Virus record (IMG/VR): IMGVR_UViG_3300033066_000693
Coordinates: 128,001 to 192,000 of that record
Reading direction: 5' to 3' (one strand)
Origin: a virus
Length of the DNA stretch: 64,000 nt
This document shows positions 4,897 to 25,417 of the stretch, in pieces. The translations under genes were made by a program, and so were the position numbers. The notes below the pieces were generated by a model that saw nothing but the letters and a program-made list of their open reading frames with translations, did not search any database and was not told where the DNA came from. Numbering within the stretch: position 1 is the first letter of the stretch; each line of letters begins with the position of its first letter.

Positions 4897-5204
4897 TTTC
4901 TTGTTCCATCCATAAAAGCAGAATGAGTGGCGTCTGCCATTTTTCTCAGGTCGTCAATGGAAAAAGACGGAAACTGACGTTTCAAATAACCGTCAATAGC
5001 TCCAACAAGATCGGCCAACTCTATAAGGGCCATAAGGCGATTCTGTTGAGCTTCTGCGTCTTGCAGTTCCTCTACTTCCTCTCGGAGCTTGGAACTAAAA
5101 CCGTACTCACCCTTCTGTATCTTCGCTAGATGATAACCCATTATTTTCCTCCGGGAAACAAGATCCCTGTTCTGACTGCTTTGCCCAATCGCCCTTCTTG
5201 ACAA
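4893..5204 (-). CDS. MazG-like all-alpha NTP pyrophosphohydrolase domain protein
   Basis: The sequence LREEVEELQDAEAQ...LIELADLVGAIDGYL resembles the MazG/HisE EExxE...D helix pair. The ORF overlaps the Dam MTase by about 98 nt as drawn. An internal Met at 5141 is a likelier start. Confidence 0.5.
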   Translation of the reverse strand: MSRRAIGQSSQNRDLVSRRKIMGYHLAKIQKGEYGFSSKLREEVEELQDAEAQQNRLMALIELADLVGAIDGYLKRQFPSFSIDDLRKMADATHSAFMDGTRK

Positions 5205-5997: not shown

Positions 5998-6503
5998 GTT
6001 TCATGCCCTTTCTTGATATTCCATTTGTCATTGATAAGAGCTATAAAGTATGCCTTATCGACTGGAATTTTTACATACTCTTCTTCCCCGCTAGTTACGT
6101 ACTTATTGGGCTTAAATTCCCAAGGAGAATCATCAAAGTCATTTCTTCTAACGACAATAAAGCTTTTTAGATCTCTATGAAAAAGAACAAAATACCTGAA
6201 GCCGTCATTTTTCTCTTTGTCTTTGCGAGAATGTTTGGTGCTTTTTCTAAAAGGAATGTCCACAGTTGGGTACGGGAAAGAAAGAGCATCAACCCATCCA
6301 GTTTTTTTCATCTCTAAAGAGAAAATATCCCCTTGCAGGATAAGATCCCAATAGTATTTAGATGATAATTCTTCACTGCCTTTTGCTGTAATAATCTCGC
6401 TCTGCAAGAAACCTTGCGATAACAAGAAATCGCTAAAAGCTTTCTTTACCGACTGATCGCAGCTTTCCAGTTCTTTGTGATTACATGGTTTTATGTAGTT
6501 CAA
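5982..6503 (-). CDS. hypothetical protein
   Basis: 173-aa ORF between the Dam MTase and DnaE-N, overlapping each by 4-16 nt. No recognisable motifs. Confidence 0.5.
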   Translation of the reverse strand: MNYIKPCNHKELESCDQSVKKAFSDFLLSQGFLQSEIITAKGSEELSSKYYWDLILQGDIFSLEMKKTGWVDALSFPYPTVDIPFRKSTKHSRKDKEKNDGFRYFVLFHRDLKSFIVVRRNDFDDSPWEFKPNKYVTSGEEEYVKIPVDKAYFIALINDKWNIKKGHETWQTL

Positions 6504-9675: not shown

Positions 9676-10151
9676 ATGAGTTCGATTCTTTCGTCTTCAT
9701 CCTCGTCCGTAGTAGGATCATCGTCAAACTGCAAGTCTTTTCTTGCTCCATACTTCTTTTCTAGGTACTCGGAATCAACAATGTAAGTATCCCATTCCTT
9801 GCGCCAGAATGGCAGCCAAGAGTCGGCAATAGACGGCAGAGGCTCTGGGGTTTTCCACCCAGATTCATTGCACCAGCAAGTAAGACACCTAATGTCTGTA
9901 TTGTGTATGTCTTTTGAAGATGGTCGGTAGTCAGCTATATAGACCTTGCCATTCCAATAGAAATGGCATTCTAACATAGCAAAACCAAATGGACTTCGTA
10001 TAGTAACTCTTGAGCTAACCATCCACTCATTGCGCTTAGAACTTGCGCCTGTAGAATATGTATGAACATTCATTATGCGACAAACTTTTTTGTACGAACC
10101 GTTTGCCTGCAAAAGAGTTAGATCTGTAAACTGTATCTCAAAATCCATCAA
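9672..10151 (-). CDS. hypothetical protein with a Cys/His cluster and an acidic tail
   Basis: 159 aa containing RCLTCWC and an acidic C-terminus DDDPTTDEDEDE. Confidence 0.5.
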   Translation of the reverse strand: MMDFEIQFTDLTLLQANGSYKKVCRIMNVHTYSTGASSKRNEWMVSSRVTIRSPFGFAMLECHFYWNGKVYIADYRPSSKDIHNTDIRCLTCWCNESGWKTPEPLPSIADSWLPFWRKEWDTYIVDSEYLEKKYGARKDLQFDDDPTTDEDEDERIELI

Positions 10152-11008
10152 AAAACCTCGTTCTCAACTACTTCCTTAGGTATTTCTGCCTTGCTTTCCT
10201 TCAATCTTTGAGATCTTGGCACGTAAGGTTCGAAGATGTTGGCAATGTTGTTTATCCTATCCCGAGCGTATTTAACATCGCCTTCTGAGTTATCTATGCC
10301 TATGTAGTTTCGGCCAGTCATCTTAGCAACTGCGCCGGTTGTACCAGTCCCCATAAATGGGTCTAGGATAGTATTGCCTCGATAGCTAAATAGCTTCAAG
10401 ATACGAGTAACAAGCTCTTCTGGATATGGCGCAGGATGTCCATTTCTGTTCTTAGTTTCTGGCTGAATGAACCATGTACTAAACGTCCATTCTTGGAACT
10501 CTTTAGGGGTCATGTCGGAAAGCTCGCTATCGCCTTCCAAGCCAAACTCGTCTTTAGACCAAACAAGAACATATTCATGAGTTCTTCTAAGCGCTGGATT
10601 TGAGCATGAACACCAAGAACCGAATGCCGTAGCTCTTCCAGACCAGTTCTGCTTGTACCAGCAAATTTCTACGCGAAACTTCAAGCCTATTTCTCGCCCT
10701 ATGTTTACTAGGTCGGCATAAATAGGACGCATGTATTCTTCGCCGTCTTGCAGATTACGCACAGAGTCTATGTTGATGGCTATTCTGCCTCCTGAAACAA
10801 GAACTCGCTTGCATTCAATGAGAATGTCTTTCAGCCATGCAAGGTAATGAGCATAAGGATCGTTATCCTTTCGATTCTTGTATTTAATGTTGATGTTGTA
10901 AGGAGGCGAAGTGCATACTAAGTGTACGGTTTCGTCTGGGATCTTTCGAAGGCCATCAAGAACGTCGTCAAACATGATGGTATTGAGTAGCTGATCTATG
11001 GGTATCAT
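10148..11008 (-). CDS. beta-class DNA methyltransferase (N4-cytosine/N6-adenine, PF01555-like)
   Basis: Motif IV SPPY (LVCTSPPYNI) lies N-terminal and motif I C-terminal (ILDPFMGTGTTGAVA), the beta-class order. Confidence 0.85.
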   Translation of the reverse strand: MIPIDQLLNTIMFDDVLDGLRKIPDETVHLVCTSPPYNINIKYKNRKDNDPYAHYLAWLKDILIECKRVLVSGGRIAINIDSVRNLQDGEEYMRPIYADLVNIGREIGLKFRVEICWYKQNWSGRATAFGSWCSCSNPALRRTHEYVLVWSKDEFGLEGDSELSDMTPKEFQEWTFSTWFIQPETKNRNGHPAPYPEELVTRILKLFSYRGNTILDPFMGTGTTGAVAKMTGRNYIGIDNSEGDVKYARDRINNIANIFEPYVPRSQRLKESKAEIPKEVVENEVF

Positions 11009-11778
11009 TTGCTTTCCTTTGAATCGAATATCGTGGTAAGCTGACTTACCCGTTCCTGCGCGATATCTATGGCTTGTTTACTCTTGTCGGAACCTATGGA
11101 GTATCTTCCTAATGAAACACCAGTCTCTATCAATGATCCACTTCCGCAGAACGGATCTAGAATCCTGCTTTCTGCATTACTCCATATTTCTACGACCCTT
11201 TGCATGAGCTTTCTAGGCTTCTGCGTTGCATAGCCTGTTTTCTCTGGCTCATTCCTACAAAGAGCAGGGATATCCGTCCACCAATCCTCTAAAAGCTTGC
11301 CCTTTTGCTCGTATTTTTCCCAAGGAATCTTCTCTTTAGACCAAGCCGCTGCCCCTCCAACATTCATCTTTGTCTTATAAGGAATGCGAGGCTGGTTAAA
11401 GATATAGTCGCCTACTCCGTACCAAAGAATCGTATTATGTTTTCTAGGGAGCCATTTCTTAGCACTAGCTGGGTTGCTAAAGCACCATATGATCTCGTTT
11501 TTGAAGCTATCCCTACCAAACATTCCGTCCATCATTACCTTGAGATAATGAACAGCCTTATAGTCAACATGGACAAGGATATTGGCGCTGGGCTTCATTA
11601 GCTTTTGAAGGTTCTCCAACCGTTCCTTCATATAGGCTAGAAACTCGTCCAGAGTCTCGCCTTCGCCATAATACTCGTCCTCTTTCTTAGAGCTATATGG
11701 TGGGTCCAAATAGATAAGATCAACCGGATCGATAACTAGGTCTTTACAATCTGTAAGATGTAGCTCGTACTTATTCAT
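11005..11778 (-). CDS. beta-class N6-adenine DNA methyltransferase
   Basis: DPPY (LIYLDPPYSS) lies N-terminal and motif I C-terminal (ILDPFCGSGSLIETG). Confidence 0.85.
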   Translation of the reverse strand: MNKYELHLTDCKDLVIDPVDLIYLDPPYSSKKEDEYYGEGETLDEFLAYMKERLENLQKLMKPSANILVHVDYKAVHYLKVMMDGMFGRDSFKNEIIWCFSNPASAKKWLPRKHNTILWYGVGDYIFNQPRIPYKTKMNVGGAAAWSKEKIPWEKYEQKGKLLEDWWTDIPALCRNEPEKTGYATQKPRKLMQRVVEIWSNAESRILDPFCGSGSLIETGVSLGRYSIGSDKSKQAIDIAQERVSQLTTIFDSKESK

Positions 11779-12403: not shown

Positions 12404-13986
12404 AGTTCAAAACCCAAATCGTCTGTACTTTGACTGGCTTTCTTTGCAATCTTCGGCTTTTCCTTGGGCGTTATCATGGGCTTTGGCGGCTCGTCGTCAA
12501 AGGCCAAATCAATATCAGGATTGGGCGACGGAGCAGACTCGCCTCGTCGCAGGACTTCCGAAGCGTCCGGGTCATTATCTGCCCAACTAGCGTCTACAAA
12601 TGCGCTTATCTTGCCAATCTTGGGGTATACGTCTAGGGTTGCTTTAGATTGATTATGATGCGGTCCAAACATGGTTGAACCATATCTGGACTTGACGCAG
12701 AATAGGTAAAGCTTTTCTTCTGACTGTTCAGGATGTCTTACTTGAACATAGATGTTATCAGCGTCAGCGGAGAAGTCATGAGAACCTCTCAAAGCGTCGG
12801 AGCCTACAGATTGCTTGCCTTCTTTCTGGTTGCGTAGAGACTTGATAGCCTCTCGATTTAGCTGCACCGCTGAGAGTACAGCGAATCCCATCTTCCTTCC
12901 AAGCTGTCGCAAGTCTTTGCACATCTGTCCGTACCAGCTATGCTCTGCTAGCTTTTGGTACCAAGGCTCTGGGCTAAGAATGGAGATATAGTCAATGACA
13001 ACCAATCGAACCTTGAAGAAGTGCTTTCGCTTTTCTAGCTCGGCGCGAATCTTCGAGACTGTCATTCTCTCTTGGGCGTCTAGAATGGCAAACTTCGAGC
13101 TTATTTGCTTGAAATCTTCGGCAGCTTTCTTTACTCTAGCCTTCTCATCAGCGGTCAGTAAATTTGGCTTTGCAAGCTTCGAGGAATCGATCTCCGCCTC
13201 TCTGGAAATGATACGCTGCATAAGACGATCCTTGGGCATTTCCAAGGATACGTACAGAACATTTTCTCCTGATTGCTTGCATACATTCAGGGAGATATTG
13301 ATCATCGTAGCAGACTTGAATCCACCTACGTCAGCAACGATAAGAGTTAGAGAGCCGGGGTCCAAGCCAATAGGCATGGTTTCATCAAAAGGCAATATGC
13401 CAGTCTGCAAAACCTTCTTAGGATTGAGAGCTTCTTTCTCTAACTGGTCATACCAATCTGGACCGTAATCGTCAACGTTCACCCATGTAGCGGCATTGTT
13501 CTCGTCCGCGCTAGAAACAAGTATGTTTAGATCGTCAGCTATATCTCTAACAGCGCTGACATAATCCTTGTTCTTGTTTGTATTGAAGCGATCAAAAAAC
13601 TCTCCGCTCTTTCTCTTTATGTAATACTCTCTGACCTTACGGCAAATGAGAGGAAAATCCTGAGGGTCTACTTTATCTAGATTGGTAATTAGCTGAAAGT
13701 TTCGCTTCTCTGTTTGCTGAGCAAACTTAGCGCTTTCGATCTCGCTACCAGTCCATTTTTTGTAGTCTCCATTGGCGGCGGCGCGAGCTATAAAATCAAG
13801 GTAATAGTTTTCTGTAAACTTTTCTGAATCTTGATGAGATTGTTCTATGCCATAGATAAACGGGCGATACTTGCTTTCAAAGTACGCAGGCCCCATTTGT
13901 TCCGCAAGAAACTCTGGAATAAGTTCGTTGCGATTTATTACTAGATGCAGTAGTTTTTCTTGAGCTTCAAGTTCTGTTATTGCCAT
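12400..13986 (-). CDS. dnaB: DnaB-family replicative DNA helicase
   Basis: Walker A lies in LTLIVADVGGFKSATMIN. A Walker B/H2-like LVVIDYISIL is present. N-terminal domain plus RecA-like C-domain architecture. ATG at 13986 is preceded by GGGGGA. Confidence 0.85.
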   Translation of the reverse strand: MAITELEAQEKLLHLVINRNELIPEFLAEQMGPAYFESKYRPFIYGIEQSHQDSEKFTENYYLDFIARAAANGDYKKWTGSEIESAKFAQQTEKRNFQLITNLDKVDPQDFPLICRKVREYYIKRKSGEFFDRFNTNKNKDYVSAVRDIADDLNILVSSADENNAATWVNVDDYGPDWYDQLEKEALNPKKVLQTGILPFDETMPIGLDPGSLTLIVADVGGFKSATMINISLNVCKQSGENVLYVSLEMPKDRLMQRIISREAEIDSSKLAKPNLLTADEKARVKKAAEDFKQISSKFAILDAQERMTVSKIRAELEKRKHFFKVRLVVIDYISILSPEPWYQKLAEHSWYGQMCKDLRQLGRKMGFAVLSAVQLNREAIKSLRNQKEGKQSVGSDALRGSHDFSADADNIYVQVRHPEQSEEKLYLFCVKSRYGSTMFGPHHNQSKATLDVYPKIGKISAFVDASWADNDPDASEVLRRGESAPSPNPDIDLAFDDEPPKPMITPKEKPKIAKKASQSTDDLGFEL

Positions 13987-14889
13987 TCAATCCCCCGCTT
14001 TTATCAGAAAGGTGTTCTTAGAAGTTACCATCTTCTGGAAACTATAACCGAGGCTATCGGTATAATCTTTAGCGAGAGCATCGAAGTCACAGCACAATAT
14101 CGTTGGCTGCCGATTCTCAATTCGTGTCATCAGAAAATCGTCAAACAATGTAACAAAGTTCTGATGATTGAAGTCGGTTTCATTCAAAGGTAAACTTACA
14201 TCGTCAATCGCCAACCAATCATACTCTTTGAGCGAGCTTGCTCTTTCTGTTTTCTGTCTTAGGTCTTGTCTTAGAGTTTGATAAGACGTTAGGGCGTATG
14301 TATCTGCTCGATTCGTAGTATAAAGCCTTCGCCAGATGGCTTCCTTCAAGACCAAACAAGCAATGAGAGTCTTACCAGTAGGAACGGTCTGCGTAGACGG
14401 CATGCCCTCTTTCTTGAGGCGAAACGGATTGCCATGAATGATAAGATTAGTACCCTCGTAGAACCTAAGGTCCATCTTAGAAATCTTGTTGTAGTCTTCT
14501 CTGCTAGTAGCATTAGAACTATCGCTGTCTCCAAAGAGATACGACTTGAGAGAAGACTTGATAGACTCTACTGTTTTGTCGCTCCAAACTCGCAGATCCT
14601 CTCCCTGCTTAGTCTTGACCAATCCTCGAACATGGTTAATGGTCTTTTCTCTATACTCAGGAGGAATGACATATTCAATATGCCCTCTTGCGTCGGCAAC
14701 CTTTCGGCAGCGACATTGATCGGGCATTTGGCATTGGTCATTCCCCTTGTACCAAGGGCAGGCTATCGCTTCGCCTGTTTCTTTGTTGGTGCCGAAAGTT
14801 GAATAATTGCGATATCGGAAATGACGGATAAATGAGCTTAGTTCTGACATATTCTCTTCTCGACCCAAAAAAATCAATGACCCTAACAA
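13987..14889 (-). CDS. P-loop NTPase, putative DnaC/IstB-like helicase loader with a Cys-rich N-terminus
   Basis: The P-loop TVPTGKTLIA resembles PGTGKTHLA. The Walker B WLAIDDV resembles LLIIDD. An N-terminal CPWYKGNDQCQMPDQCRC segment is present. The gene lies immediately downstream of the helicase gene. Confidence 0.5.
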   Translation of the reverse strand: MLGSLIFLGREENMSELSSFIRHFRYRNYSTFGTNKETGEAIACPWYKGNDQCQMPDQCRCRKVADARGHIEYVIPPEYREKTINHVRGLVKTKQGEDLRVWSDKTVESIKSSLKSYLFGDSDSSNATSREDYNKISKMDLRFYEGTNLIIHGNPFRLKKEGMPSTQTVPTGKTLIACLVLKEAIWRRLYTTNRADTYALTSYQTLRQDLRQKTERASSLKEYDWLAIDDVSLPLNETDFNHQNFVTLFDDFLMTRIENRQPTILCCDFDALAKDYTDSLGYSFQKMVTSKNTFLIKAGD

Positions 14890-14895
14890 GGCACG

Positions 14896-17895
14896 TTACA
14901 GATCAAGGTCATGGCCTTTTTTCTGGTTTGAAGAGCGTACCTTATCTCTTGTGTTGGCAAACTTACATCTACCTTCTGCCCATTTTCGCATAGCGCTAAA
15001 ATCTTCAGCGCGAGTGCTAGACAATGCGCAGATGCTCTTACATGACGCCATCAAGTCTGTGGTTGTAATCGGCCTCTTGCCGTCGCAGAAACACTCGAAC
15101 ATGGCATTCTCAATGGTTTTCTCGATCTCTGCTCCGCTGAAACCGTCCGTACTACTAGCCAACGCATCAGTATCAAACTTACTGCTATCAAACTTGAACT
15201 TCTTAAGAAGAACTTCGTAGATCTGCCGCCTACCAATATGATTAGGCAAGTCAACAAAGAATACTTCGTCAAAACGTCCCGCTCTCATGAACTCAGGCGG
15301 AATATCTTGAACGTTGTTTGCAGTACAGATAACGAATACAGGAGCGGTCTTCTCTTGCAACCAAGTAAGGAAAGTACCAATGACTCTCTTAGTTGTTCCG
15401 CTGTCGCCAGAACCCTGACCAACTCCGCCAGCCAAACCCTTCTCAATCTCGTCTGCCCAAAGAATGCAGTTATGGCATAGGAAGCCATTGGCAAAGAAGT
15501 TGTGATTCTTTTCGCAGGATAGGTCATACGCCCACTGCGTTTCTGCAATCTGTATGCTGTCGATTTTGACGCCAACAACGTCAGAAGAAAGAAGTTTGGT
15601 CATCTCTCCGAGGTTCTTTCGTGCCAGATTAGCAGTAAGGAAATCATGAAGATCAATAGCGACATTCTGATTTACAAACGCATTTGGCTGCTCAAAAACC
15701 GCCATTTCCTGATCATTGTATTCAAGTTCGGTAATCCCATACTCATGTCGGATAGCAGAGAGAACTTTACCAAGCTGGTATCCAACAACCTCAACCCTAT
15801 TCATAGGAGAGCTAACTACAAGGTCCATAAAAGCTTCAACAGACCTAACTCTCTTCCTGTTAAAGATGGGTATGATATGGAAGAATCTTTCTATCTGCTC
15901 TGTCTCCATAACAATGCAGCTTTGCGGAGACAAGAATGAAATGATACCGAAGGTATGCAAAACAGTCTTGACTCTTTGAAATGTCGAAGGCGTATTGCAC
16001 TTCATTGCTACAAAAGGCTTGACCGGATTTCTCTGTTGGGCGTCTGCAAACCCAAAGTATCCAGCGCCATGAAAGAATCCAGCCAAGTAGAATGAAAGGA
16101 TTTCCTTAGACTGCGAAGCTAAGTTCTCCTTGAATCCCGCCAAGGCCTGAGTAACAACCTTGTTCGTCAAAAGAACCATGTTGTTCTCGAAGCTCGGCTC
16201 TGTCAAAAACGATTCCGACATCATTCCAGCAAAGAAGAACCTAATCTTTGGATCAGCATGATGGAACATGATCTCGCCGGTATCCTTATGAAAAGTACCG
16301 CAAGCGTCCATCATGCCAAATACGGTCGCAATCTGAATCAGATTCAGGTGCTTATCATTGATGCAAGCCTTATGGAGTTTTCCATTAGCTCGCATACTAA
16401 TGCTGCCTTCCTTCTTGCCCGGGAAAAGGCTAGTCAAAGAAAGAGTCTTCTTGTCTCTACGAAGCGTTTTGGGGGTAATAAGAAGATCGTTCTCAACAAG
16501 ATCCTTAGCTTCTACCCAAACAAGCTTTCCGTCACGATTGACCATCATCTTGTGGTCATGCGTAACCTCGATAGAGCCTACAGCCGTCCTGAGACGGAGC
16601 ATCTTCTTCTGCTCTGCGTGACGAATAATCGCTTTTACCCGAGTCTTTTCTAGCTTGAGAGTCTTTTCATTGAAAGAGTAAGTATAGAAAGGCTTCTTAT
16701 CAACAGACTCAAGCAAGTCTTTGACAAGATGCGACTTACCGTTTTCGTCATACACAACCGAGTTACCAGATACGCATGGCGCTACCGTCTCTGCCAACTT
16801 GATGACATGGCGAGCTATTTTTTCCGATTCGCCAACCAATGAGTTGAACATCTTTCCGAAGTCCAACCTCAAAAGAGGCATCTCATACAATGAAGCTGCG
16901 GCCTTAGCGGTAAGAGACTTACCGCAACCGGGCATGCCAAGAAGCAATACACCGCGAGGCGGCTTGAGTCCATACTCTGCTGCGTCCTTGGTAAATGCCT
17001 GCTTACGAAGGTTCAACCAGTGAGAAAGGTCGTCCAAACCTCCTACGTCTTGCATATCAATGTTTGAGTCAACATACTCAAGAATATCTGTCTTCTTGAT
17101 AATCTGCTTCTTCTCTTGAAGAATGATGTTGATATCAAACGGTTTAACTCCAAGCTGACTGCTCATGACAATAGATTTGGCATACGCTTGGCTAGCTTCG
17201 ATAGTCGTAAGTCCCTTGACTGAATTGATAAGCTCTTCTTGATGAAGTTCGACTTCTTTTCCTATGCCCGGAAATCCTGTCTTGACCTTATCTGTATCAA
17301 CAAGATCGAAGAGAATAGAGCGAATCTCTCCCTCATTAGGGAAAGGGAAATCCAATGCGGATATCTCCTTTTCCAAGGCAGGATTGGTAATGTAGTTTGG
17401 ACCAGTCAGAATGACATGGCAGTTGCTTGTAATGCGATTGATGTGCTTAAGCTGTCTCTCAATCTGAGGACTGCATCTCTCAGGTGAGAGATAGCGATAA
17501 AAGTCGCACAAGATATAGATTGAACCGTTGCCCGGCTCTTTGAGATTCTTTTTCTTCTCTAGCTCGCTGATAATGAAGGACAGAATACCTTCAGGGTATC
17601 TAGCGTCTACGGTAGCTGGCATGGTAATAGCTTCGTTTTTCTTGAGCTTTCTCAAGAGACGAAAGCAATCCCACTCGAAAGGCTCATAGCCTCTCGCAAT
17701 GCTTACGCTTTGAAGGTAATCTAGAAGCCGACTTTCCTCATTCGTTGAAATGTAAATGAGGTTCGTTCTTGTCCGCAATAGAGCTATCAGACTGTTGTTG
17801 AAATCCTCAGTTGCCATACTGAGGTATTGCTTCTGATAGTCTTCGGAAGACGCGAGAGGATTATCCTGTTGGCTTGGCTTCGGTGCTTTCGACAT
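14896..17895 (-). CDS. classical AAA-family ATPase (CDC48/FtsH-type cassette) interrupted by an intein
   Basis: MQDVGGLDDL...GLKPPRGVLLLGMPGCGKSLTAKAAAS gives Walker A. After the intein, ILWADEIEKG gives Walker B. FVICTANNVQDIPPEFMRAGRFDEVFFVDLP is the SRH/Arg finger and GFSGAEIE is sensor 2. The ORF overlaps the IF3 gene by 35 nt, so the true start may be the Met at 17817. Confidence 0.85.
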   Translation of the reverse strand: MSKAPKPSQQDNPLASSEDYQKQYLSMATEDFNNSLIALLRTRTNLIYISTNEESRLLDYLQSVSIARGYEPFEWDCFRLLRKLKKNEAITMPATVDARYPEGILSFIISELEKKKNLKEPGNGSIYILCDFYRYLSPERCSPQIERQLKHINRITSNCHVILTGPNYITNPALEKEISALDFPFPNEGEIRSILFDLVDTDKVKTGFPGIGKEVELHQEELINSVKGLTTIEASQAYAKSIVMSSQLGVKPFDINIILQEKKQIIKKTDILEYVDSNIDMQDVGGLDDLSHWLNLRKQAFTKDAAEYGLKPPRGVLLLGMPGCGKSLTAKAAASLYEMPLLRLDFGKMFNSLVGESEKIARHVIKLAETVAPCVSGNSVVYDENGKSHLVKDLLESVDKKPFYTYSFNEKTLKLEKTRVKAIIRHAEQKKMLRLRTAVGSIEVTHDHKMMVNRDGKLVWVEAKDLVENDLLITPKTLRRDKKTLSLTSLFPGKKEGSISMRANGKLHKACINDKHLNLIQIATVFGMMDACGTFHKDTGEIMFHHADPKIRFFFAGMMSESFLTEPSFENNMVLLTNKVVTQALAGFKENLASQSKEILSFYLAGFFHGAGYFGFADAQQRNPVKPFVAMKCNTPSTFQRVKTVLHTFGIISFLSPQSCIVMETEQIERFFHIIPIFNRKRVRSVEAFMDLVVSSPMNRVEVVGYQLGKVLSAIRHEYGITELEYNDQEMAVFEQPNAFVNQNVAIDLHDFLTANLARKNLGEMTKLLSSDVVGVKIDSIQIAETQWAYDLSCEKNHNFFANGFLCHNCILWADEIEKGLAGGVGQGSGDSGTTKRVIGTFLTWLQEKTAPVFVICTANNVQDIPPEFMRAGRFDEVFFVDLPNHIGRRQIYEVLLKKFKFDSSKFDTDALASSTDGFSGAEIEKTIENAMFECFCDGKRPITTTDLMASCKSICALSSTRAEDFSAMRKWAEGRCKFANTRDKVRSSNQKKGHDLDL
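15469..16776 (-). mobile_element. intein (436 aa) with LAGLIDADG-type homing endonuclease domain, inserted between Walker A and Walker B of the AAA ATPase
   Basis: The N-terminal splice junction is ...ETVAP|CVSGNSVV, with Cys1 confirmed as tgc at 16774-16776. The C-terminal junction is ...NGFLCHN|CILWADEIE, with HN then Cys+1 confirmed at 15466-15474. Two internal LAGLIDADG-like motifs occur (IATVFGMMDACGTF and FYLAGFFHGAGYFGF). Excision restores the contiguous AAA sequence LAETVAP-CILWADEIEKG. Confidence 0.75.
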
Positions 17896-18391
17896 TAGTG
17901 GCTTCTTTAATAGGCTTCAATATCACAAAAATCTCACGATCCGCAACCTTTAGATCGTCCCATTTAGCGATATTGCGCAAATCAGCCACGTTCTCTTCGA
18001 GCATCTTTTTTGCATGTTCTTTGAATGCTCGTTCTCTTCCTTTAAGCTCCACACCAAACTTGACTATGCACTTCTTTTCCAGCATAGTTCGCACTTTATT
18101 CTTCTTGATGTCAATATCATGCTGATGCTCTTTTAGAACGAACATCATTTCTTTTGTCTTCACTGTCTTCTGCGCCGCCTTCTTAGAGGCTTCAAACTTC
18201 ATCTTGCCAACATCGCCCCACTTGCAGAGCGGTATCCCTTTTTCAGTCTTTGCAACCTGAATAAGGTCTAAGCCCTTTTCCTTTGCCTGAGAAATAGCCA
18301 ATCGCTTGACAACTTCTGCTCTCTGCCCGTCCTGACCAATCACTACTACAGTATGACCGTAGATCTCATCGTTTGCTAGTATCTTGTTCAC
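17861..18391 (-). CDS. infC: translation initiation factor IF-3
   Basis: The protein is collinear with bacterial IF3 over its full length. EIYGHTVVVIGQDGQ...AKEKGLDLIQVAKTEKGIPLCKWGDVGKMKFE aligns with EIRAQEVRLTGLEGE...[31 protein letters not shown]. The C-domain segment KFGVELKGRERAF...REIFVILKP aligns with RFRGREMAH...RQMIMVLAP. The start is a GTG at 18389-18391 preceded by AAGGAG with an 8-nt spacer. Confidence 0.85.
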   Translation of the reverse strand: MNKILANDEIYGHTVVVIGQDGQRAEVVKRLAISQAKEKGLDLIQVAKTEKGIPLCKWGDVGKMKFEASKKAAQKTVKTKEMMFVLKEHQHDIDIKKNKVRTMLEKKCIVKFGVELKGRERAFKEHAKKMLEENVADLRNIAKWDDLKVADREIFVILKPIKEATNVESTEAKPTG

Positions 18392-18403
18392 CCTTCCTAC
18401 TCC

Positions 18404-19339
18404 TTACACGAACTCTTTGGCCGTGTTTGTAAACTGAATATTCGTCTCTTGAATCCCCGCCAGAATCTCCGACAGTCCCTCTACATTGTAAGATAATGGA
18501 TAGGGTTGCAACGACTTGGTTGATCTAACGATCTTCTGCAACGTAGACTCGCCTTCTTTGCGAGCGTCTAGTAATATGTCGGCCACAATCTTCTTAGCTT
18601 TGATTACTGGTAAGCTTTTCTTGTTTACCAACCATGCCATCGCTATTACTACTCCATAGTTGGTAAGAAAGCTAATCTTGTCTACATTGAATGTACGATC
18701 TATGCTACCAAAATCTACCTCAACATTCGGGATAACAATGGCCGCAACTGATTGAGGCTCTTGATACTCTCTAAGAAAACGCTTTACAGAAGCTTTGTTT
18801 CTAATGTGGATAGGACGGAAAAACCCTGCCTTGGCAATAATCTTCTCTAGCTCATTGGCAACAAACCATTCTATGTAGTTCTTGATAAATGAGTTGGAGA
18901 CTTCGTAGCCATTCAGGTTTTTGAAATCTTCCTTGAGCGTCTTAATGGTAATAGCACCTACTTGATTTGTTGTAGTAAACTCAACGCCCGGATACTTGGC
19001 ACGATACAACTCTTTGAAGTGAACAAAGAAGTATGCTGGTTTCCATTCCTCAACAGGAAGTTCCATAGAATAACTACGTGGCTTCTTATACTTGATTTGG
19101 TTCCATTCAAGTTCACCGCTTGAGCCAGTTGGGTCAACTACCTTGCCGTGTTTGTCCACTACTTCTAGCTTTGGCTCGTCTATGATCTCAAAGATATCGT
19201 CCTGCTTTTGCTTTGTTTTAGGACCGATTCCAAGGAGAGCATTCTTCTCGCTCTTGCCGAGCATACTCTCAAAGGCCGAAGGCTTCTCGATAGTCTTCAT
19301 CTTTTCCTTTTTAGGCTTCTTCGCCATACTACTGCCCAA
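18404..19339 (-). CDS. hypothetical protein
   Basis: 311-aa ORF with a basic N-terminus. Confidence 0.5.
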   Translation of the reverse strand: MGSSMAKKPKKEKMKTIEKPSAFESMLGKSEKNALLGIGPKTKQKQDDIFEIIDEPKLEVVDKHGKVVDPTGSSGELEWNQIKYKKPRSYSMELPVEEWKPAYFFVHFKELYRAKYPGVEFTTTNQVGAITIKTLKEDFKNLNGYEVSNSFIKNYIEWFVANELEKIIAKAGFFRPIHIRNKASVKRFLREYQEPQSVAAIVIPNVEVDFGSIDRTFNVDKISFLTNYGVVIAMAWLVNKKSLPVIKAKKIVADILLDARKEGESTLQKIVRSTKSLQPYPLSYNVEGLSEILAGIQETNIQFTNTAKEFV

Positions 19340-20426
19340 TGATTACATATTCAACGCCGCTGGTATTATCCTCGGCGCGACACTTATACTCGTAGGAGAG
19401 TTCTTTCATTTCAACTTTTTTCTTGAAAGGCTTTACCATATCTGATATAGTGGTTATATCGGCCCAACTGCTATTGTTGTAGCTAATGGCCCATGCAGCA
19501 TTGCCGGGAAGCGCAGCCAACAAGTCTGCAAAACTCTCTTTGTACGTCTTAGCCTTAACAAACTTCTTTGAGGCGTCTTTGAGATATGGGATTTTTCCTA
19601 TCTCTTGCTGGGCAAGATACTCTTCAAAGAACTGATACATGAAAGCATAATCGCTTTGCTGTCCGCCATACGGAGGGTCAATGTATATGAGATCAAACTT
19701 CGTTTGATTAGCCTTCAAGAAGTCAAAAACATCTCCATGATTGCAATGGCTATGCGGTCCAGTAATGTTGAACAAGAACGGCTTCATCTTATGGAAAGCC
19801 ATCTCCTTGTTTTGATTGCGTTGATGCTCAAGGCGATGTTTGAGTCCAGCAATAACCTGACCGCTATTAAGCCTACCGCCTACGTAGCAATGACTCATAA
19901 TGAAATGAATCAATGACGTATGAGCAACTGCCATTTTTACGCTTACGGCGTCTCCAAATACCGCTTTGCAGTTTGCATAGTAGTTGTCTATAAACTTGCA
20001 TTCTCGAATAGTAAAACGAATGTCGCCATACTTGGCTTCAACGAAGTTGGCTTTGTTCTTGTTGTCGTTCTCGGTCAAGAACCGCCATTCTTCCTTCGAA
20101 ATTCGGCCCTCCTGACCATTCAACAAGGCTATGCCATTCAAATATGAAGATTGCAAGATATCGTTACAGGTGACAGTCTTTCCCAGCATCCTAAAGAAAG
20201 CTGAGACAACAGAGCTACCCATAAAAAGATCGCAAACGTTATGGATGGAGTCCCATTCGAGTGCGTCATAGAGAGCTAACCCTATATCTGGCAAGATCTT
20301 ACGTTTATTGCCAACATAGGGATTAGGAATAACTCCAAGCGAGTTTTGTGCCGTCAAAGCGTCTGACGTAAATGTATCTCTTGGGGACGACGCAAAGATA
20401 TTATCAAACTGCTCAAGCTTATGCAT
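19329..20426 (-). CDS. D12-class (alpha-class) N6-adenine DNA methyltransferase
   Basis: The N-terminal YVGNKRKILPDI...VCDLFMGSSVVSAFF matches the D12 opening GGK...EPFxGxGsv (motif I). The DPPY motif lies downstream in FDLIYIDPPYGG. Confidence 0.8.
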   Translation of the reverse strand: MHKLEQFDNIFASSPRDTFTSDALTAQNSLGVIPNPYVGNKRKILPDIGLALYDALEWDSIHNVCDLFMGSSVVSAFFRMLGKTVTCNDILQSSYLNGIALLNGQEGRISKEEWRFLTENDNKNKANFVEAKYGDIRFTIRECKFIDNYYANCKAVFGDAVSVKMAVAHTSLIHFIMSHCYVGGRLNSGQVIAGLKHRLEHQRNQNKEMAFHKMKPFLFNITGPHSHCNHGDVFDFLKANQTKFDLIYIDPPYGGQQSDYAFMYQFFEEYLAQQEIGKIPYLKDASKKFVKAKTYKESFADLLAALPGNAAWAISYNNSSWADITTISDMVKPFKKKVEMKELSYEYKCRAEDNTSGVEYVIIGQ

Positions 20427-21954
20427 GAACCGACGATCCTTTGAAGTCTTTGATTATGAACTCAGGCTCAGTTTCGTAGATGCGACGACGAGCCTTGCTA
20501 TGGCCCTGCATGTACTTCATATTGTCTTGGAAATCGACAATGTAAGCGTCCTTTTTGACGAAACCACTTATCGGATCAGAGAACGTTCTAATTACTCGAC
20601 CAACCCGCTGCAATGCTCTGGTTTGAGACTTACCGCTACCAGCAAGAATCAATCCGTCCAATGGCTTTACGTCAACGCCCTCGTCAAAGATAGACGTAGC
20701 AATGGTAATCGGAGCTTTCTTGATTCGCATTTGATCAATATGCGATTGTCGAACCTTGGCGCTATGAGAACCATTCAAAAATACGCTATTTGGGATCATT
20801 GATTCCAAAAGCTCGCCATGCTCGATATGTTTGCCCAAGATAAGAACGTGCCTACCTTCTTGTACCATGTTCTGAGCGATATTGGCGATCAGTAGGTTTC
20901 TCTCTTCATTCTGAACAATGCCTTCTTTATAGGCAGTCTGATACGTAATATCTTCGTCCAGCTTCTTACGAGTATGAACAAAGTATATAGTAGGTCTTAC
21001 TAGGATTCCTTGGCGGATAAGGAATGAAGCATTGATCTCTGCAATCATCTTGCCGAAGCAAGCGTCAATAAGGAGATCGTCGCCCATGTCTCTCCAAGGA
21101 GTAGCGCTCAGTCCATAGCGGAACCTAGCGTTCATGGAGTGGTCAGCAATTACTTGGCACGTTTCGGCTGCCCAGTGCTGCACTTCGTCGCAGATCATTC
21201 CTTTTGCGCGATGAATAAGATCGGCAATCAGAGCATAGCGGGCCTTAACTTCTTCAGAAGGCTCTTCCTTTTCTGCGTCTTCGTCGTCATACTTCTTGAA
21301 CTTTTCGCCAACCGCTCGAACAGCGGTTTGGATAGTCATGATGTTGATATCTCGGATATCGCACTTGCCGCCTCCGATAACGCCAACTTCAAGAGGCATT
21401 CCGCTGATATTGAGGAATCTCTCTAGCTCGGATTTTGCCTGTCGCAAAAGGTCTTGAGAAGTAACATAGAAGATAAACGGACCAACGCCAAGCTTTGCAA
21501 TAATGCCAGCGCCGATGGCGGTCTTTCCTCCGCCAGTTGCAACCTTGATAATCCCTCGCTGCTGCTTGACGGCCTTATCTATAACCTCTTGCTGATAATC
21601 TCTGACTTGGAAATCATGATTGGTGCCAAGGATTACTTGGTTTGAAGAGAAACCGCTACGCTCGTCTGAGGTTGAACAACCAACGCCATAGGCTCGGAAG
21701 AAGTCCGTAGCTCGGCTATAAAGACCTGTAGGAAAATGAACGCCGTCTTTCTTAATAGAACAACGACACCTAGCCTTATCATAGCATACGGTGGTTATGT
21801 ATCCATTCCAGTTTTTAGCGTTCTTCCCCTTCCACATACGGTTGGGGTCTTCGTATCCAAGAGTTTTCTTGAACTCCTGATACAGTTCTTTGGTCATCTT
21901 GCCAACAACGAAAGTTGTTGAGTCTTGAACTCGCAGAGTTATAGGTGTTGTCAT
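20419..21954 (-). CDS. superfamily-2 DExH-box DNA helicase (UvsW/Res-subunit-like)
   Basis: Walker A is in KVATGGGKTAIG and the DExH box in ICDEVQH. Motif III is LSATP and motif VI QRVGRVIR. Confidence 0.85.
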   Translation of the reverse strand: MTTPITLRVQDSTTFVVGKMTKELYQEFKKTLGYEDPNRMWKGKNAKNWNGYITTVCYDKARCRCSIKKDGVHFPTGLYSRATDFFRAYGVGCSTSDERSGFSSNQVILGTNHDFQVRDYQQEVIDKAVKQQRGIIKVATGGGKTAIGAGIIAKLGVGPFIFYVTSQDLLRQAKSELERFLNISGMPLEVGVIGGGKCDIRDINIMTIQTAVRAVGEKFKKYDDEDAEKEEPSEEVKARYALIADLIHRAKGMICDEVQHWAAETCQVIADHSMNARFRYGLSATPWRDMGDDLLIDACFGKMIAEINASFLIRQGILVRPTIYFVHTRKKLDEDITYQTAYKEGIVQNEERNLLIANIAQNMVQEGRHVLILGKHIEHGELLESMIPNSVFLNGSHSAKVRQSHIDQMRIKKAPITIATSIFDEGVDVKPLDGLILAGSGKSQTRALQRVGRVIRTFSDPISGFVKKDAYIVDFQDNMKYMQGHSKARRRIYETEPEFIIKDFKGSSVHA

Positions 21955-23502: not shown

Positions 23503-24693
23503 TTATCTCTCGTGGTTCAGATTGACATTATAAGTCCAAGTAATGCCTATCTTAGGATGTATTCCGAACAGCTTTTGTTCGGCAATGTTACCCGGCATAG
23601 CATTGCTAAGGGAGTACACATCTCCGCCTACAAAGCATCCGTTCATAAGTATTCGACCATTGTGCGTCGTAAACTCAGAGCAGTTATGAAAATGGCCGCA
23701 AAGCGTATAGTTTGGAATCTGCTTTGTTAGACCAGTCATCTTTCGCTCAAGATCCAAGAAAGAAGTAACCGGAGGATTCTTGCCCTTTACGTCGTCTCCG
23801 TGAACCATCAAGAACTTATGGTTCTGTACCTCCTTGATCATCCACCAACTCTTCTCGATGTTGAACTTGATACGAGGTTGCTCTCTAAACTCAAGCTCAA
23901 GATACTTGTAGCAGAACAAGTCAAAGTTGTTGTACTTCTTCTCTGCGCCGGTCGGGGCAATGCGACCATGATTGCCATACAAACCATAGAACTCAACCTC
24001 GTCAAACAAGGTTAGCATGTAGTAGATGAAGTCGGCAATAGCTCGATAGCCGATCATAACTTGATCGAATACAGGCGTTCCAATGTAGACGGCTGACCAT
24101 GCGCCTGCGGTATTCGCTCCTTCAACTATGTCTCCTAGAGAGAAGATATGGAGCTTTGGAATCTTGTACAGCTTAGAGTGAAGCTCTTTGATATCAGTAA
24201 TGGCCTTCTTCAGATTTTCCATGCGCTGAAGAAAGATATCAATGTTGTACTCTGATAGTCCGCCTGTTTCTTCAAGCGTATGCTCATGCCCAACATGAAG
24301 GTCGCTAAAGATTAGCCCCATGTCTTCGGCTGTACGATGAGAAGAAACTGTCGGCGTATAAACCGGAGGCGGAGCAATAGGAAGCTTTCGAGCGGCTTCA
24401 TAAAGCTTGTCTGCTATGATGTCCGCTTGCAAACGGTACTTATCTAGAGACTTCCCGATGCTAACTTCATGCTTGAGAAGACCCTGAGTAATGGTGGCTT
24501 GGCGATTCTCTTTGGCTTCCTCGTCATGGAAGTCAAAGTCTTCCCAGTTTGTATCTTTGTTGTACTTCGTCTCGCAAGCAGCATAGCTGCGATTGAGCAT
24601 GGAGGCTATAACCTTGTAAGGCGTCCCCTTCTGTCTCTCGGTATAAAGTAGTTCTAGCTCTTCGTTTGTCCACTTCCTATCACAGCTTGACAT
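23503..24693 (-). CDS. calcineurin-like metallophosphoesterase (Mre11/SbcD-like nuclease) with N-terminal Myb/SANT-like segment
   Basis: The phosphoesterase motifs occur in order: SDLHVGH (D.H), GDIVEG (GD), GNHG (GNH), MVHGDD and CGHFHN (GH.H). The N-terminus KWTNEELELLYTERQKGTPYKVIASML is Myb-like. Confidence 0.75.
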   Translation of the reverse strand: MSSCDRKWTNEELELLYTERQKGTPYKVIASMLNRSYAACETKYNKDTNWEDFDFHDEEAKENRQATITQGLLKHEVSIGKSLDKYRLQADIIADKLYEAARKLPIAPPPVYTPTVSSHRTAEDMGLIFSDLHVGHEHTLEETGGLSEYNIDIFLQRMENLKKAITDIKELHSKLYKIPKLHIFSLGDIVEGANTAGAWSAVYIGTPVFDQVMIGYRAIADFIYYMLTLFDEVEFYGLYGNHGRIAPTGAEKKYNNFDLFCYKYLELEFREQPRIKFNIEKSWWMIKEVQNHKFLMVHGDDVKGKNPPVTSFLDLERKMTGLTKQIPNYTLCGHFHNCSEFTTHNGRILMNGCFVGGDVYSLSNAMPGNIAEQKLFGIHPKIGITWTYNVNLNHER

Positions 24694-25417
24694 TCTTAAT
24701 CCTTTGCAAAAATGCGGCCAAGACTGTATTGTAGGAAGACAACTGCTTGAGTTTGTTCCGACGAGTCATGCCGTTTGGGTTTACTCTGTACTTTATTAGG
24801 TAGTCTTGAAGATTGTGAAACTTCTTTCCTTCAAGGATAGCTCGACACCAGAAGTCAAAATCATGGGCTGAGTCAACGCTAGGGTTCTGCGTATAACCGC
24901 CCAATTGTTTGTAGTCTGCTACTCTAAACATCGACGTAGGATTGATAATCGGACACTTGCGATAAATCGCCAACATCGTCACGATTTCTTTGTGATCTGA
25001 TGGCGGGAAATCCCAATCTCCAATAAAATCGCCATGAACGCCTATCTTCTTTGCTCTGCCGCCCACGCAAAATACATCTGCATGTGAATCTAGATAGGCC
25101 GCTTGAGCCTCTAACCTATTCGACATGCTTATGTCGTCGCCGTCATGGATGGCAATATACTCTCCACGGGCTAGTTCGATAGCCTCTTTGGATCGAGCGC
25201 TCACTCCTCGATTTTCGCTCGAATCAATGTACCTAAACCGCTCATCATTAGCTTCTGTATGTAACGCTCGTATAATCTTTCCAGTATCGTCGGTTGAACC
25301 ATCGTTGATCACGATAAGCTCAAGGTCTTTATAGCTCTGATTGAGAATAGAACGAATAGACTCTTCTATGAAGTCTTGGCAGTTATAGGCAGGAGTTATA
25401 ACGGTTATCTTAGGCAT
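24680..25417 (-). CDS. family-2 glycosyltransferase (GT-A fold)
   Basis: PKITVITPAYNCQDFIEESIRSILNQSYKDLELIVINDGSTDDT is a canonical GT2 N-terminus. DGDD/DxD-like motifs are present. Confidence 0.85.
   Translation of the reverse strand: MPKITVITPAYNCQDFIEESIRSILNQSYKDLELIVINDGSTDDTGKIIRALHTEANDERFRYIDSSENRGVSARSKEAIELARGEYIAIHDGDDISMSNRLEAQAAYLDSHADVFCVGGRAKKIGVHGDFIGDWDFPPSDHKEIVTMLAIYRKCPIINPTSMFRVADYKQLGGYTQNPSVDSAHDFDFWCRAILEGKKFHNLQDYLIKYRVNPNGMTRRNKLKQLSSYNTVLAAFLQRIKNVKL

What the first reader, a model, noticed from the sequence alone, without database searches (positions are those of the whole stretch)
15469..16776. LAGLIDADG intein inside the P-loop region of a phage AAA ATPase
The canonical intein boundaries (Cys1 in CVSGNS, and HN followed by Cys+1) bracket a 436-aa insert with two LAGLIDADG-like motifs. 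Removal rejoins the Walker A region to a perfect Walker B, ILWADEIE. The intein sits in a highly conserved nucleotide-binding site, a typical homing target. Inteins are usually reported in terminase, polymerase, helicase or RNR genes, so a classical AAA ATPase host protein is less usual.
Basis: seen in the sequence. Interest (0 to 1): 0.6.

Follow-up and report, generated by a model that had tools for sequence, protein, structure and literature searches.

The report
Nuclease-dead intein in jumbo-phage AAA ATPase
A large phage's AAA ATPase gene is interrupted just before its Walker B motif by a genuine self-splicing intein whose homing-endonuclease domain has lost its catalytic residues; this is an ordinary kind of element, but some related phages kept the intein after losing the ATPase around it.

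Summary
Window 15469..16776 (minus strand) encodes a 436-aa in-frame insert in a 999-aa AAA ATPase gene (14896..17895). It has every class-1 intein hallmark: Cys1, block B TxxH, block F Asp, terminal His-Asn and Cys+1. It passes the curated cut-offs of three intein profiles. Its predicted fold matches solved endonuclease-bearing inteins. Removing it gives a 563-aa protein collinear with thousands of intein-free ~550-aa homologues and restores AP|CILWADE.

Three corrections apply:
- The site is 5 residues before the Walker B Asp and 46 residues after Walker A, so it is not in the P-loop.
- The middle domain has a LAGLIDADG fold, but both catalytic acids are replaced (Cys159, Ala238) and it matches no Pfam LAGLIDADG model. 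The nuclease is probably dead.
- Hosts of this type are not unusual. AAA+ hosts are common and a CDC48 intein has been published.

The allele family sits in syntenic jumbo-phage contigs (164-499 kb) and co-diverges with its extein, so it looks old, fixed and vertically inherited.

The most interesting result lies outside the window. In at least two related lineages the syntenic slot holds only an intein-derived ORF with no exteins and no splicing residues. This hints that the intein moiety has a use of its own.

Verdict: new member of a known kind, modest interest.

The parts
14896..17895 (-). Precursor gene: AAA ATPase with intein, 999 aa plus stop
   Evidence: ORF list. Pfam AAA E 3.5e-23 plus Intein_splicing. 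The spliced product matches phrog_8638 full length, E 1e-127.
16777..17895 (-). N-extein, aa 1-373: an N-terminal domain of about 280 aa with no family match, then the first half of the AAA module. Ends KLAETVAP.
16915..16938 (-). Walker A / P-loop GMPGCGKS, uninterrupted in this window
   Evidence: Aligned to p97/Cdc48 GPPGCGKT.
15469..16776 (-). Intein, 436 aa, class 1
16441..16776 (-). Hint N-lobe (intein aa 1-112) with block A (Cys1-Val-Ser-Gly) and block B
   Evidence: TIGR01445 matches aa 1-79. Beta-rich in the AF2 model. PDB sequence hits to PI-PkoII, Cdc21, DnaB and RadA inteins.
16549..16563 (-). Block B THDHK (Thr72, His75)
   Evidence: T and H are invariant in all 17 AAA-hosted alleles aligned there.
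15811..16359 (-). LAGLIDADG-fold core (intein aa 140-322), two alpha-beta-beta-alpha-beta-beta-alpha repeats in the model
   Evidence: AF2 pLDDT mostly 80-96 in this stretch. Foldseek hits to I-Tsp061I, I-AniI, WhiA and the bI3 maturase, and to the endonuclease-bearing inteins 7qss, 2cw7, 1dq3 and 1vde. No Pfam hit at E<=1.
16297..16323 (-). LAGLIDADG motif 1, VFGMMDACG. The catalytic position 8 is Cys159.
   Evidence: In the same alignment columns as GMIDSDG of P0137, which passes Pfam LAGLIDADG_3. The helix ends at residue 159 in the model.
16060..16086 (-). LAGLIDADG motif 2, LAGFFHGAG. The catalytic position 8 is Ala238.
   Evidence: In the same columns as GYFDGDG of P0137 and P0138. The helix ends at residue 238.
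15589..15810 (-). Variable helical region between the endonuclease core and the Hint C-lobe (intein aa 323-396), role unknown
   Evidence: pLDDT below 50 for aa 324-396. Length varies among alleles. Only a faint HTH_3 hint, in relative P0137 (E 0.21).
15469..15588 (-). Hint C-lobe (aa 397-436) with block F (YDLSCEKNHNFFANG, Asp418) and block G (FLCHN: His435, Asn436)
   Evidence: TIGR01443 matches aa 416-436. Conservation.
15466..15468 (-). Cys+1, first residue of the C-extein
   Evidence: Cys in all 14 intein-bearing alleles. C 23, S 23, V 5, A 4, T 1 among 56 intein-free homologues.
15448..15465 (-). Walker B ILWADE, restored next to ...ETVAP-C by splicing
14899..15468 (-). C-extein, 190 aa: Walker B, second region of homology (FMRAGRFDE at 15265..15291) and AAA lid

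Best explanation
The element is a genuine class-1 intein in the AAA ATPase of a jumbo-type phage. The gene is translated as a 999-aa precursor. In that precursor, 436 foreign residues separate Walker A from the Walker B strand, so the ATPase core should be unable to form (inferred). The Hint domain then carries out canonical splicing: an N-S acyl shift at Cys1, trans-thioesterification to Cys+1, cyclisation of Asn436 assisted by His435, and an S-N shift. This chemistry is inferred from the conserved residues and has not been shown. The products would be a 563-aa classic-clade AAA ATPase with a restored ...ETVAP-CILWADEIE, plus a free 436-aa intein. The nested LAGLIDADG domain keeps its fold but has lost the acidic residue at the end of both motifs (Cys159, Ala238). 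It most likely no longer cuts DNA, and the intein no longer homes. It is an old, fixed, vertically inherited allele. It persists because only exact excision would preserve Walker B, and possibly because the domain is still useful.
For: Boundaries and frame were read directly. Three intein profiles are passed above curated cut-offs. The nearest PDB sequences are inteins, led by PI-PkoII at E 7e-10. The AF2 model has pLDDT 73.7 and pTM 0.72. Its best Foldseek matches are endonuclease-bearing inteins: TliVMA E 3e-16, PI-PkoII, PI-PfuI and PI-SceI. The core also hits free LAGLIDADG proteins. The spliced extein aligns in one piece to intein-free phage AAA ATPases. It also matches thousands of ~550-aa homologues at 45-49% identity, with no gap or insert at the junction. 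Cys1, TxxH, the block F Asp, (H/K)N and Cys+1 are kept in every complete AAA-hosted allele (15 of the 17; the other two are cut short before blocks F/G). Catalytic position 8 is Asp in both motifs only in P0137; the window has Cys and Ala. The window core has no Pfam LAGLIDADG hit at E<=1, whereas P0137 and P0002 pass the model. In NJ trees the exteins of the intein-bearing alleles cluster together, apart from P0137 and the mini-intein P0042, and the tree mirrors the intein tree. All relatives above 50% extein identity carry the intein. Four-fold sites between the window and L001 differ by 50-70%, close to saturation. Across the same comparison the exteins keep 70-74% identity, Hint 59-72% and the LAGLIDADG core 40% without indels. 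Intein GC (0.438) equals window GC (0.435).
Against: Splicing has not been demonstrated. The -1 residue is Pro, which from my own recollection slows the first step in some inteins, although it is conserved in all alleles here. Loss of nuclease activity is inferred from two positions in a MAFFT alignment and from helix ends in a predicted model, not from a solved active site or an assay. The LAGLIDADG core is still clearly under purifying selection, which a purely decaying domain would not be. The trees are neighbour-joining without support values.
Confidence: 0.75

Rival explanations
1. Domesticated intein. The excised Hint plus nuclease-dead LAGLIDADG protein has a function of its own that benefits the phage, for example sequence-specific DNA binding in the replication module in the manner of WhiA or the LAGLIDADG maturases. 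That function, not only the difficulty of exact deletion, would explain why the domain is retained.
For: In the syntenic relatives L006 and L007/L008, the slot between the hyp311/IF3 genes and the hyp300-DnaB genes holds only an intein homologue of 440 or 478 aa. No N- or C-extein is detectable by tblastn. Six mutually divergent representatives of such ORFs are full length and uninterrupted. Five of the six have lost Cys1 and four the block B His; none keeps the His-Asn end (P0140 still ends in Asn). They fall in two separate intein clades, and the flanking genes agree with that split, which implies at least two independent extein losses with the intein retained. The hosted LAGLIDADG core is conserved at 40% identity without indels across near-saturated synonymous divergence.
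Against: No function, partner or DNA target is known. The contigs with orphan ORFs are short (11.8 and 28.7 kb), so an AAA gene elsewhere in those genomes is not excluded. No dN/dS could be computed because synonymous sites are saturated. The mini-intein allele P0042 shows the endonuclease domain can be deleted from a hosted allele. The orphan ORFs are in relatives, not in this window.
Confidence: 0.3
2. Active mobile intein. The LAGLIDADG domain still cleaves intein-less alleles, perhaps as a nickase or with non-canonical metal ligands, and the element still homes between co-infecting phages.
For: The fold is retained and the reading frame is intact. Some alleles keep one or both Asp: P0137 both, P0126, P0001 and P0138 one. 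The P0137/P0138/P0042 ('SKN') sub-lineage does not follow the extein tree, so mobility exists within the family.
Against: Both metal-binding positions are non-acidic in the window (Cys159, Ala238). From established knowledge of PI-SceI D218/D326 and I-CreI D20, loss of these residues abolishes cleavage. There is no profile match to any LAGLIDADG family. Intein and extein co-diverge, and no empty site exists among close relatives.
Confidence: 0.1
3. Conditional-splicing switch. The intein holds the ATPase inactive until a cue, such as redox state acting through Cys1, Cys+1, Cys421 and Cys434, permits splicing. This would time ATPase activity during infection.
For: The insertion splits the nucleotide-binding core. 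Four cysteines cluster at the splice junction and are conserved in most alleles. Post-translational regulation by inteins in ATPase motifs has been proposed in the literature (PMC5050341, PMC4760082).
Against: There is no direct evidence. Conservation of Cys1 and Cys+1 is already explained by catalysis. The hypothesis is not exclusive of the best explanation.
Confidence: 0.12
4. Dead insertion. The intein no longer splices and the AAA gene is a pseudogene.
For: Pro at -1. No experimental splicing data.
Against: Every catalytic splicing residue is intact. The exteins are conserved at 70-74% identity across near-saturated synonymous divergence. The orphan ORFs show what happens to these residues once splicing is no longer needed: they are lost.
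Confidence: 0.03

Closest known systems
Archaeal LAGLIDADG-bearing inteins with solved structures (PI-PkoII 2cw7, PI-PfuI 1dq3, TliVMA 7qss, PI-SceI 1vde)
   Same: Class-1 Hint domain with a LAGLIDADG domain nested at the usual position. These are the best fold matches (Foldseek E 3e-16 to 3e-7, TM about 0.5-0.6). PI-PkoII is also the best PDB sequence match.
   Different: Sequence identity is only 9-15%. The window copy lacks both catalytic acids. The host is a phage AAA ATPase. A 74-residue variable helical region replaces the stirrup or DNA-recognition add-ons of those inteins.
Inteins in AAA+ and other P-loop ATPases (MCM sites d/e, Pol III gamma site a, RFC-S, LonB, mycobacteriophage TerL1-e, Anaeramoeba CDC48)
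   Same: Insertion in the conserved nucleotide-binding core at or next to Walker B (PMC4760082, PMC5050341). A CDC48-type host has been reported (PMC10710043).
   Different: I found no description of this allele family, at AP|C(I/V)LW.DE in the phrog_8638 phage AAA ATPase, in the searched literature. I could not compare its site with the published CDC48 site.
Nuclease-dead LAGLIDADG scaffolds (WhiA, bI3 maturase)
   Same: LAGLIDADG fold retained without the catalytic acids. Both appear among the fold hits (3hyi, 2ab5).
   Different: Those proteins have demonstrated DNA- or RNA-binding roles. None is shown here.
Yeast HO and WHO proteins (intein-derived, no exteins)
   Same: This applies to the orphan ORFs in the relatives L006 and L007: standalone genes with an intein-like Hint plus LAGLIDADG architecture, no exteins and degenerate splicing motifs (PMC7282813).
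   Different: HO and WHO are eukaryotic, carry a zinc-finger fusion and are active nucleases that arose by duplication or mis-homing. The phage ORFs sit in the original host-gene slot, have no added domain and mostly lack the catalytic acids.

Membership tests
Intein (class 1, Hint superfamily) | Nucleophile (Cys/Ser) at intein position 1 | tested here: met
   Cys1 in CVSGNS. Invariant in all 17 hosted alleles aligned.
Intein (class 1, Hint superfamily) | Block B TxxH | tested here: met
   Thr72 and His75 in THDHK.
Intein (class 1, Hint superfamily) | Blocks F/G with terminal His-Asn followed by a Cys/Ser/Thr +1 residue | tested here: met
   YDLSCEKNHNFFANGFLCHN|C. TIGR01443 32.7 bits against a cut-off of 15.6.
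Intein (class 1, Hint superfamily) | Curated profile match above threshold | tested here: met
   PF14890 78.3 against 35.8. TIGR01445 39.8 against 24.5.
Intein (class 1, Hint superfamily) | In-frame insertion that is absent from homologues, whose removal restores a conserved host motif | tested here: met
   Alignment A1. Single-piece tblastn matches to intein-free phage genes. About 550-aa homologues.
Intein (class 1, Hint superfamily) | Hint fold | tested here: met
   Predicted model only. Foldseek hits to many mini-inteins and to Hedgehog Hint.
Intein (class 1, Hint superfamily) | Protein splicing actually occurs | not testable with these tools
   Needs expression and a western blot or mass spectrometry.
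LAGLIDADG homing endonuclease | Two-repeat alpha-beta-beta-alpha-beta-beta-alpha fold with two LAGLIDADG helices | tested here: met
   AF2 secondary structure. Foldseek hits to I-Tsp061I, I-AniI and endonuclease-bearing inteins.
LAGLIDADG homing endonuclease | Sequence-profile match (Pfam LAGLIDADG_1/2/3, Hom_end) | tested here: not met
   No hit at E<=1 for the window core. The homologous alleles P0137 (43.4 bits) and P0002 (25.2 bits) pass the cut-off of 22.5.
LAGLIDADG homing endonuclease | Acidic metal-binding residue at the end of each LAGLIDADG motif | tested here: not met
   Cys159 and Ala238, in the alignment columns where P0137 has Asp in both motifs.
LAGLIDADG homing endonuclease | Site-specific cleavage of the intein-less allele | not testable with these tools
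   Needs an in vitro cleavage assay.
Classic-clade AAA ATPase (PF00004) | Walker A GxxGxGK[ST] and Walker B hhhhDE | tested here: met
   GMPGCGKS and ILWADE. Pfam AAA E 3.5e-23.
Classic-clade AAA ATPase (PF00004) | Second region of homology with Arg fingers, and similarity to Cdc48/p97-type modules | tested here: met
   FMRAGRFDE aligns with RFGRFD / RPGRLD of Cdc48. Best PDB hits are Cdc48/p97 D2 at E 7e-53.
Classic-clade AAA ATPase (PF00004) | AAA lid domain | tested here: inconclusive
   AAA_lid_3 scores 26.3 bits against a cut-off of 27.2 in the window. It passes in several relatives.
IteA anti-phage ATPase (NF042959) | Equivalog score cut-off | tested here: not met
   62 bits against a cut-off of 510. 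This is only generic AAA similarity.

The most novel reading that the evidence does not exclude
The intein moiety (Hint plus catalytically dead LAGLIDADG) of this jumbo-phage lineage has been co-opted for a function of its own. In at least two related lineages the AAA ATPase exteins were deleted, while the intein-derived ORF was kept intact in the same genomic slot and shed its splicing residues. That would make it a prokaryotic-virus counterpart of the yeast HO/WHO story. It would also imply that the hosted copy in this window releases a useful protein on splicing rather than a mere parasite.
Probability: 0.3. Interest if true: 0.7.

Novelty: new member of a known kind. Interest (0 to 1): 0.35.

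Why it matters
As it stands, this is a clean and fully canonical intein. It adds a phage classic-clade AAA ATPase (phrog_8638, function unknown) and an insertion site just upstream of Walker B to the list of intein hosts. It also gives a well-sampled example of the late phase of the homing cycle: the allele is fixed, the nuclease is dead, and one allele is already reduced to a mini-intein. It is practically useful for annotation, because the true gene product is 563 aa. It could also serve as a source of Cys1/Cys+1 splicing domains that tolerate Pro at -1.

The wider lineage matters more. One gene shows five states across related phages:
- no intein
- a full intein
- a mini-intein
- two inteins, one of them apparently an atypically split intein inside Walker A
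- an intein with no exteins

If the extein-less ORFs are functional, they would be a rare case of intein domestication outside yeast.

Tried and rejected
- **GenBank phage searches.** Megablast of 13000..19500 against GenBank phages gave no match. tblastn of the intein against the same collection also gave none.
- **Word-indexed protein search.** With the intein alone it recovered only 3 hits. The exhaustive HMMER search was needed to see the family.
- **IMG/VR scans.** Alignment A3 (window plus orphan ORFs) had no stretch conserved enough to search with. Single-protein scans with P0127 and with the window intein found nothing. Alignment A4 then found four loci.
- **Bacterial and archaeal genomes.** The GTDB genome scan found no relative, so there is no host clue and no prophage copy.
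- **HTH domain.** I suspected an XRE-type helix-turn-helix in intein aa 323-396. Pfam gives only HTH_3 at E 0.21 in one relative and nothing in the window, so this is not claimed.
- **dN/dS.** Not computed, because four-fold sites are near saturation. Domain-wise amino-acid identity was used instead.
- **IteA anti-phage ATPase membership.** Rejected: 62 bits against a cut-off of 510.
- **Other copies.** A profile built from the family finds no second copy in any frame of the window.
- **Jug phages.** This gut jumbo-phage group (PMC12880540) was considered as the source. The paper describes different marker genes (eIF-1A, many group I introns), and I have no sequence evidence linking the two.
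Full report
**Observation**

The minus-strand ORF 14896..17895 encodes 999 aa. Residues 374-809, encoded by 15469..16776, start at ...KLAETVAP|CVSGNS and end at ...NGFLCHN|CILWADEIEKG. Walker A (GMPGCGKS, 16915..16938) lies 46 residues upstream of the insertion. The Walker B Asp-Glu lies at +6/+7 of the C-extein (ILWADE, 15448..15465). The site is therefore the start of the Walker B strand, not the P-loop.

**Is it an intein?**

Yes, by all three kinds of evidence available.
- **Profiles.** Three curated profiles are passed with margin: Pfam Intein_splicing at 78.3 bits against 35.8, TIGR01445 at 39.8 against 24.5, and TIGR01443 at 32.7 against 15.6.
- **Solved structures.** The nearest solved sequences are inteins: PI-PkoII, a PolB split intein, Cdc21, DnaB and RadA.
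- **Predicted fold.** An AlphaFold model built on eight allelic sequences has pLDDT 73.7 and pTM 0.72, and is weak only for residues 324-396. Its best PDB matches are the endonuclease-bearing inteins TliVMA, PI-PkoII, PI-PfuI and PI-SceI (E 3e-16 to 3e-7). Many mini-inteins match the Hint lobes. I-Tsp061I, I-AniI, WhiA and the bI3 maturase match the middle domain.

The residues needed for class-1 splicing are all present: Cys1, Thr72 and His75 (block B), Asp418 (block F), His435-Asn436 and Cys+1.

**Host protein and insertion site**

- The spliced 563-aa product matches phrog_8638 (function unknown) end to end at E 1e-127.
- Its ATPase module is closest to Cdc48/p97 D2 (E 7e-53), which has the same AP-C-V-L-F-F-D-E string.
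- It aligns in a single piece with intein-free phage genes such as Corndog gp96 and Rhizobium phage L338C.
- It also matches thousands of metagenomic ~550-aa proteins at 45-49% identity.
- In the multiple alignment these proteins are contiguous across the junction.
- The +1 position in 56 intein-free homologues is Cys (23), Ser (23), Val (5), Ala (4) or Thr (1). It is always Cys in intein-bearing alleles.

**Allele family**

An exhaustive HMMER search found about 20 close relatives of the intein. Seventeen are in the same AAA family at exactly the same site. They include a 153-aa mini-intein with no endonuclease domain (P0042). Three alleles end in Lys-Asn instead of His-Asn.

**Endonuclease**

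The two LAGLIDADG-like helices end at residues 159 and 238 in the model. In the family alignment these positions are the motif's eighth residue, which in characterised enzymes is the metal-binding Asp or Glu (established knowledge: I-CreI D20, PI-SceI D218/D326). The window has Cys159 and Ala238. Only P0137 has Asp in both motifs, and P0126, P0001 and P0138 have one. The window core matches no Pfam LAGLIDADG model even at E<=1, while P0137 and P0002 pass. I conclude the fold is LAGLIDADG but the nuclease is very probably inactive.

**Evolution**

- In NJ trees, the exteins of twelve of the fourteen intein-bearing alleles cluster together. The tree has the same sub-clades as the intein tree.
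- The exception is the Lys-Asn group. P0137, the one allele with an intact active site, sits outside that cluster, and the mini-intein P0042 sits among intein-free exteins. This pattern is what one expects if only that sub-lineage is or was recently mobile.
- All relatives with more than 50% extein identity carry the intein.
- Between the window and its nearest relatives, four-fold degenerate sites differ by 50-70%, which is near saturation. Across the same comparison the exteins keep 70-74% identity, the Hint lobes 59-72%, the LAGLIDADG core 40% with no indels, and the variable region 33%.
- The endonuclease domain is therefore relaxed but not neutral.
- Intein GC equals window GC.

**Context**

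All 39 predicted genes lie on the minus strand and there are no tRNA genes. The AAA gene sits in a replication module. In order along the window, that module holds a primase Zn-ribbon, DnaB, a 300-aa unknown, the AAA gene, IF3, a 311-aa unknown, a D12 methyltransferase and an SF2 helicase. Upstream lie giant ORFs of 1449-3246 aa with Kelch, LamG and fn3 domains. The same gene order occurs on IMG/VR contigs of 164, 170, 257 and 499 kb and on other metagenomic contigs. The window therefore comes from a jumbo-phage lineage. No relative was found in GenBank phages at the DNA level, nor in GTDB genomes.

**Relatives: the unexpected part**

- **Split gene in L004/L009.** The AAA gene is in two pieces, broken inside Walker A. 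The first ORF ends GLPG|CVLGNTKIRIRKKKEGKHLIYVL*. After 141 nt, the second ORF begins with 127 residues that end ...SIISHN|CGKS, and it also carries the Walker B intein. The C-piece scores 27 bits on Intein_splicing, below the cut-off. This looks like an atypically split intein with a very short N-piece, but it is not proven.
- **Extein-less ORFs in L006 and L007/L008.** The slot between the 311-aa/IF3 genes and the 300-aa/DnaB genes holds only a 440- or 478-aa homologue of the intein. tblastn finds no trace of either extein, although the flanking genes are 50-78% (L006) and 22-58% (L007) identical to the window's.
- **Properties of these ORFs.** Six mutually divergent representatives exist. 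Five of the six have lost Cys1 and four the block B His, and none keeps the terminal His-Asn, but all retain the full-length architecture.
- **Independent origins.** They fall in two different intein clades, in agreement with the similarity of their flanking genes. This argues for at least two independent losses of the exteins with retention of the intein.
- **Possible vestiges.** By eye, their short leaders resemble the last residues of the N-extein (LKISANIEG against IKLAETVAP). This is suggestive only.
- **Closest precedent.** The nearest case I could find is yeast HO/WHO (PMC7282813).

**Comparison with the literature**

Inteins favour P-loop ATPases. About 70% sit in ATP-binding proteins. 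AAA+ hosts include MCM, RFC-S, Pol III gamma and LonB, and Walker B-adjacent sites are known in MCM, Pol III gamma and mycobacteriophage TerL1-e (PMC4760082, PMC5050341). A CDC48 ATPase intein has been reported in Anaeramoeba, with similarity to inteins at orthologous prokaryotic sites (PMC10710043). An AAA host is therefore not unusual. I found no description of this particular phage family or of its extein-less derivatives, but the searchable library is incomplete.

**Verdict**

This is a real, canonical class-1 intein that is probably splicing-competent. Its LAGLIDADG domain is degenerate, and it is fixed and vertically inherited in a jumbo-phage AAA ATPase. It is a new member of a known kind. 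The finding itself deserves modest interest. The orphan intein ORFs in relatives deserve follow-up.

Noticed in passing
L006 7891-9213 (P0127); L007 5952-7388 and L008 125-1561 (P0129); also P0125, P0128, P0132, P0140: Standalone 440-478-aa ORFs homologous to the whole intein occupy the syntenic slot of the AAA gene. No exteins are detectable and the splicing residues are lost. They fall in two separate intein clades, which suggests repeated extein loss with the intein retained.
   Followed up: partly
L004 8001-11570 (= L009), proteins P0076 and P0123; P0138 has the same N-terminus: The orthologous AAA gene is split inside Walker A (GLPG|C...GKS). A 23-aa IntN-like tail ends the first ORF and a 127-aa IntC-like head ending SHN|CGKS starts the second. 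This is a candidate atypically split intein. The same protein also carries the Walker B intein. The Pfam intein score is below threshold (27 against 35.8 bits).
   Followed up: partly
window 20419-21954 (-) compared with L001 4687-7455 and L004 3261-5813: The window's SF2 helicase (511 aa) has no intein. Its orthologues in two syntenic relatives are 922 and 850 aa and carry inteins at two different sites. The lineage is intein-rich, with presence/absence polymorphism.
   Followed up: partly
window 6500-7987 (-) and 2306-4291 (-): The DnaE-type polymerase is encoded in two separate genes. One has PHP plus DNA_pol3_alpha positions 1-97. The other has positions 68-260 plus the finger and HHH domains. 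About 2.2 kb separates them and holds three genes, including a D12 methyltransferase (5107-5997). No intein termini are evident. L007 has a similar 481-aa N-terminal piece.
   Followed up: partly
window 17861-18391 (-): A phage-encoded translation initiation factor IF3 homologue (IF3_N plus IF3_C, both above Pfam cut-offs). Its 3' end overlaps the start of the AAA gene by 35 nt. It is present in L001, L007 and L010 but absent from L004.
   Followed up: partly
window 27279-54218 (-): Four consecutive giant ORFs of 3246, 1449, 1524 and 2754 aa, carrying Kelch-repeat, Laminin_G_3/ConA-like, fn3 and Ig-like domains. They are presumably tail-fibre or host-recognition proteins. Three glycosyltransferase-like genes follow (24680-27277 by homology to L001).
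   Followed up: no
window 5107-5997, 10148-11008, 11005-11778, 19329-20426 (-): At least four DNA methyltransferase genes (two D12-class, two N6_N4-type by homology to L002/L004) lie within 15 kb of the replication module.
   Followed up: no
window 15589-15810 (-), intein aa 323-396: A helical region between the LAGLIDADG core and the Hint C-lobe is modelled with low confidence and varies in length among alleles. In some relatives it looks by eye like an XRE-type helix-turn-helix (GYRLG...STIGRYERQ...), but Pfam gives only E 0.21.
   Followed up: partly
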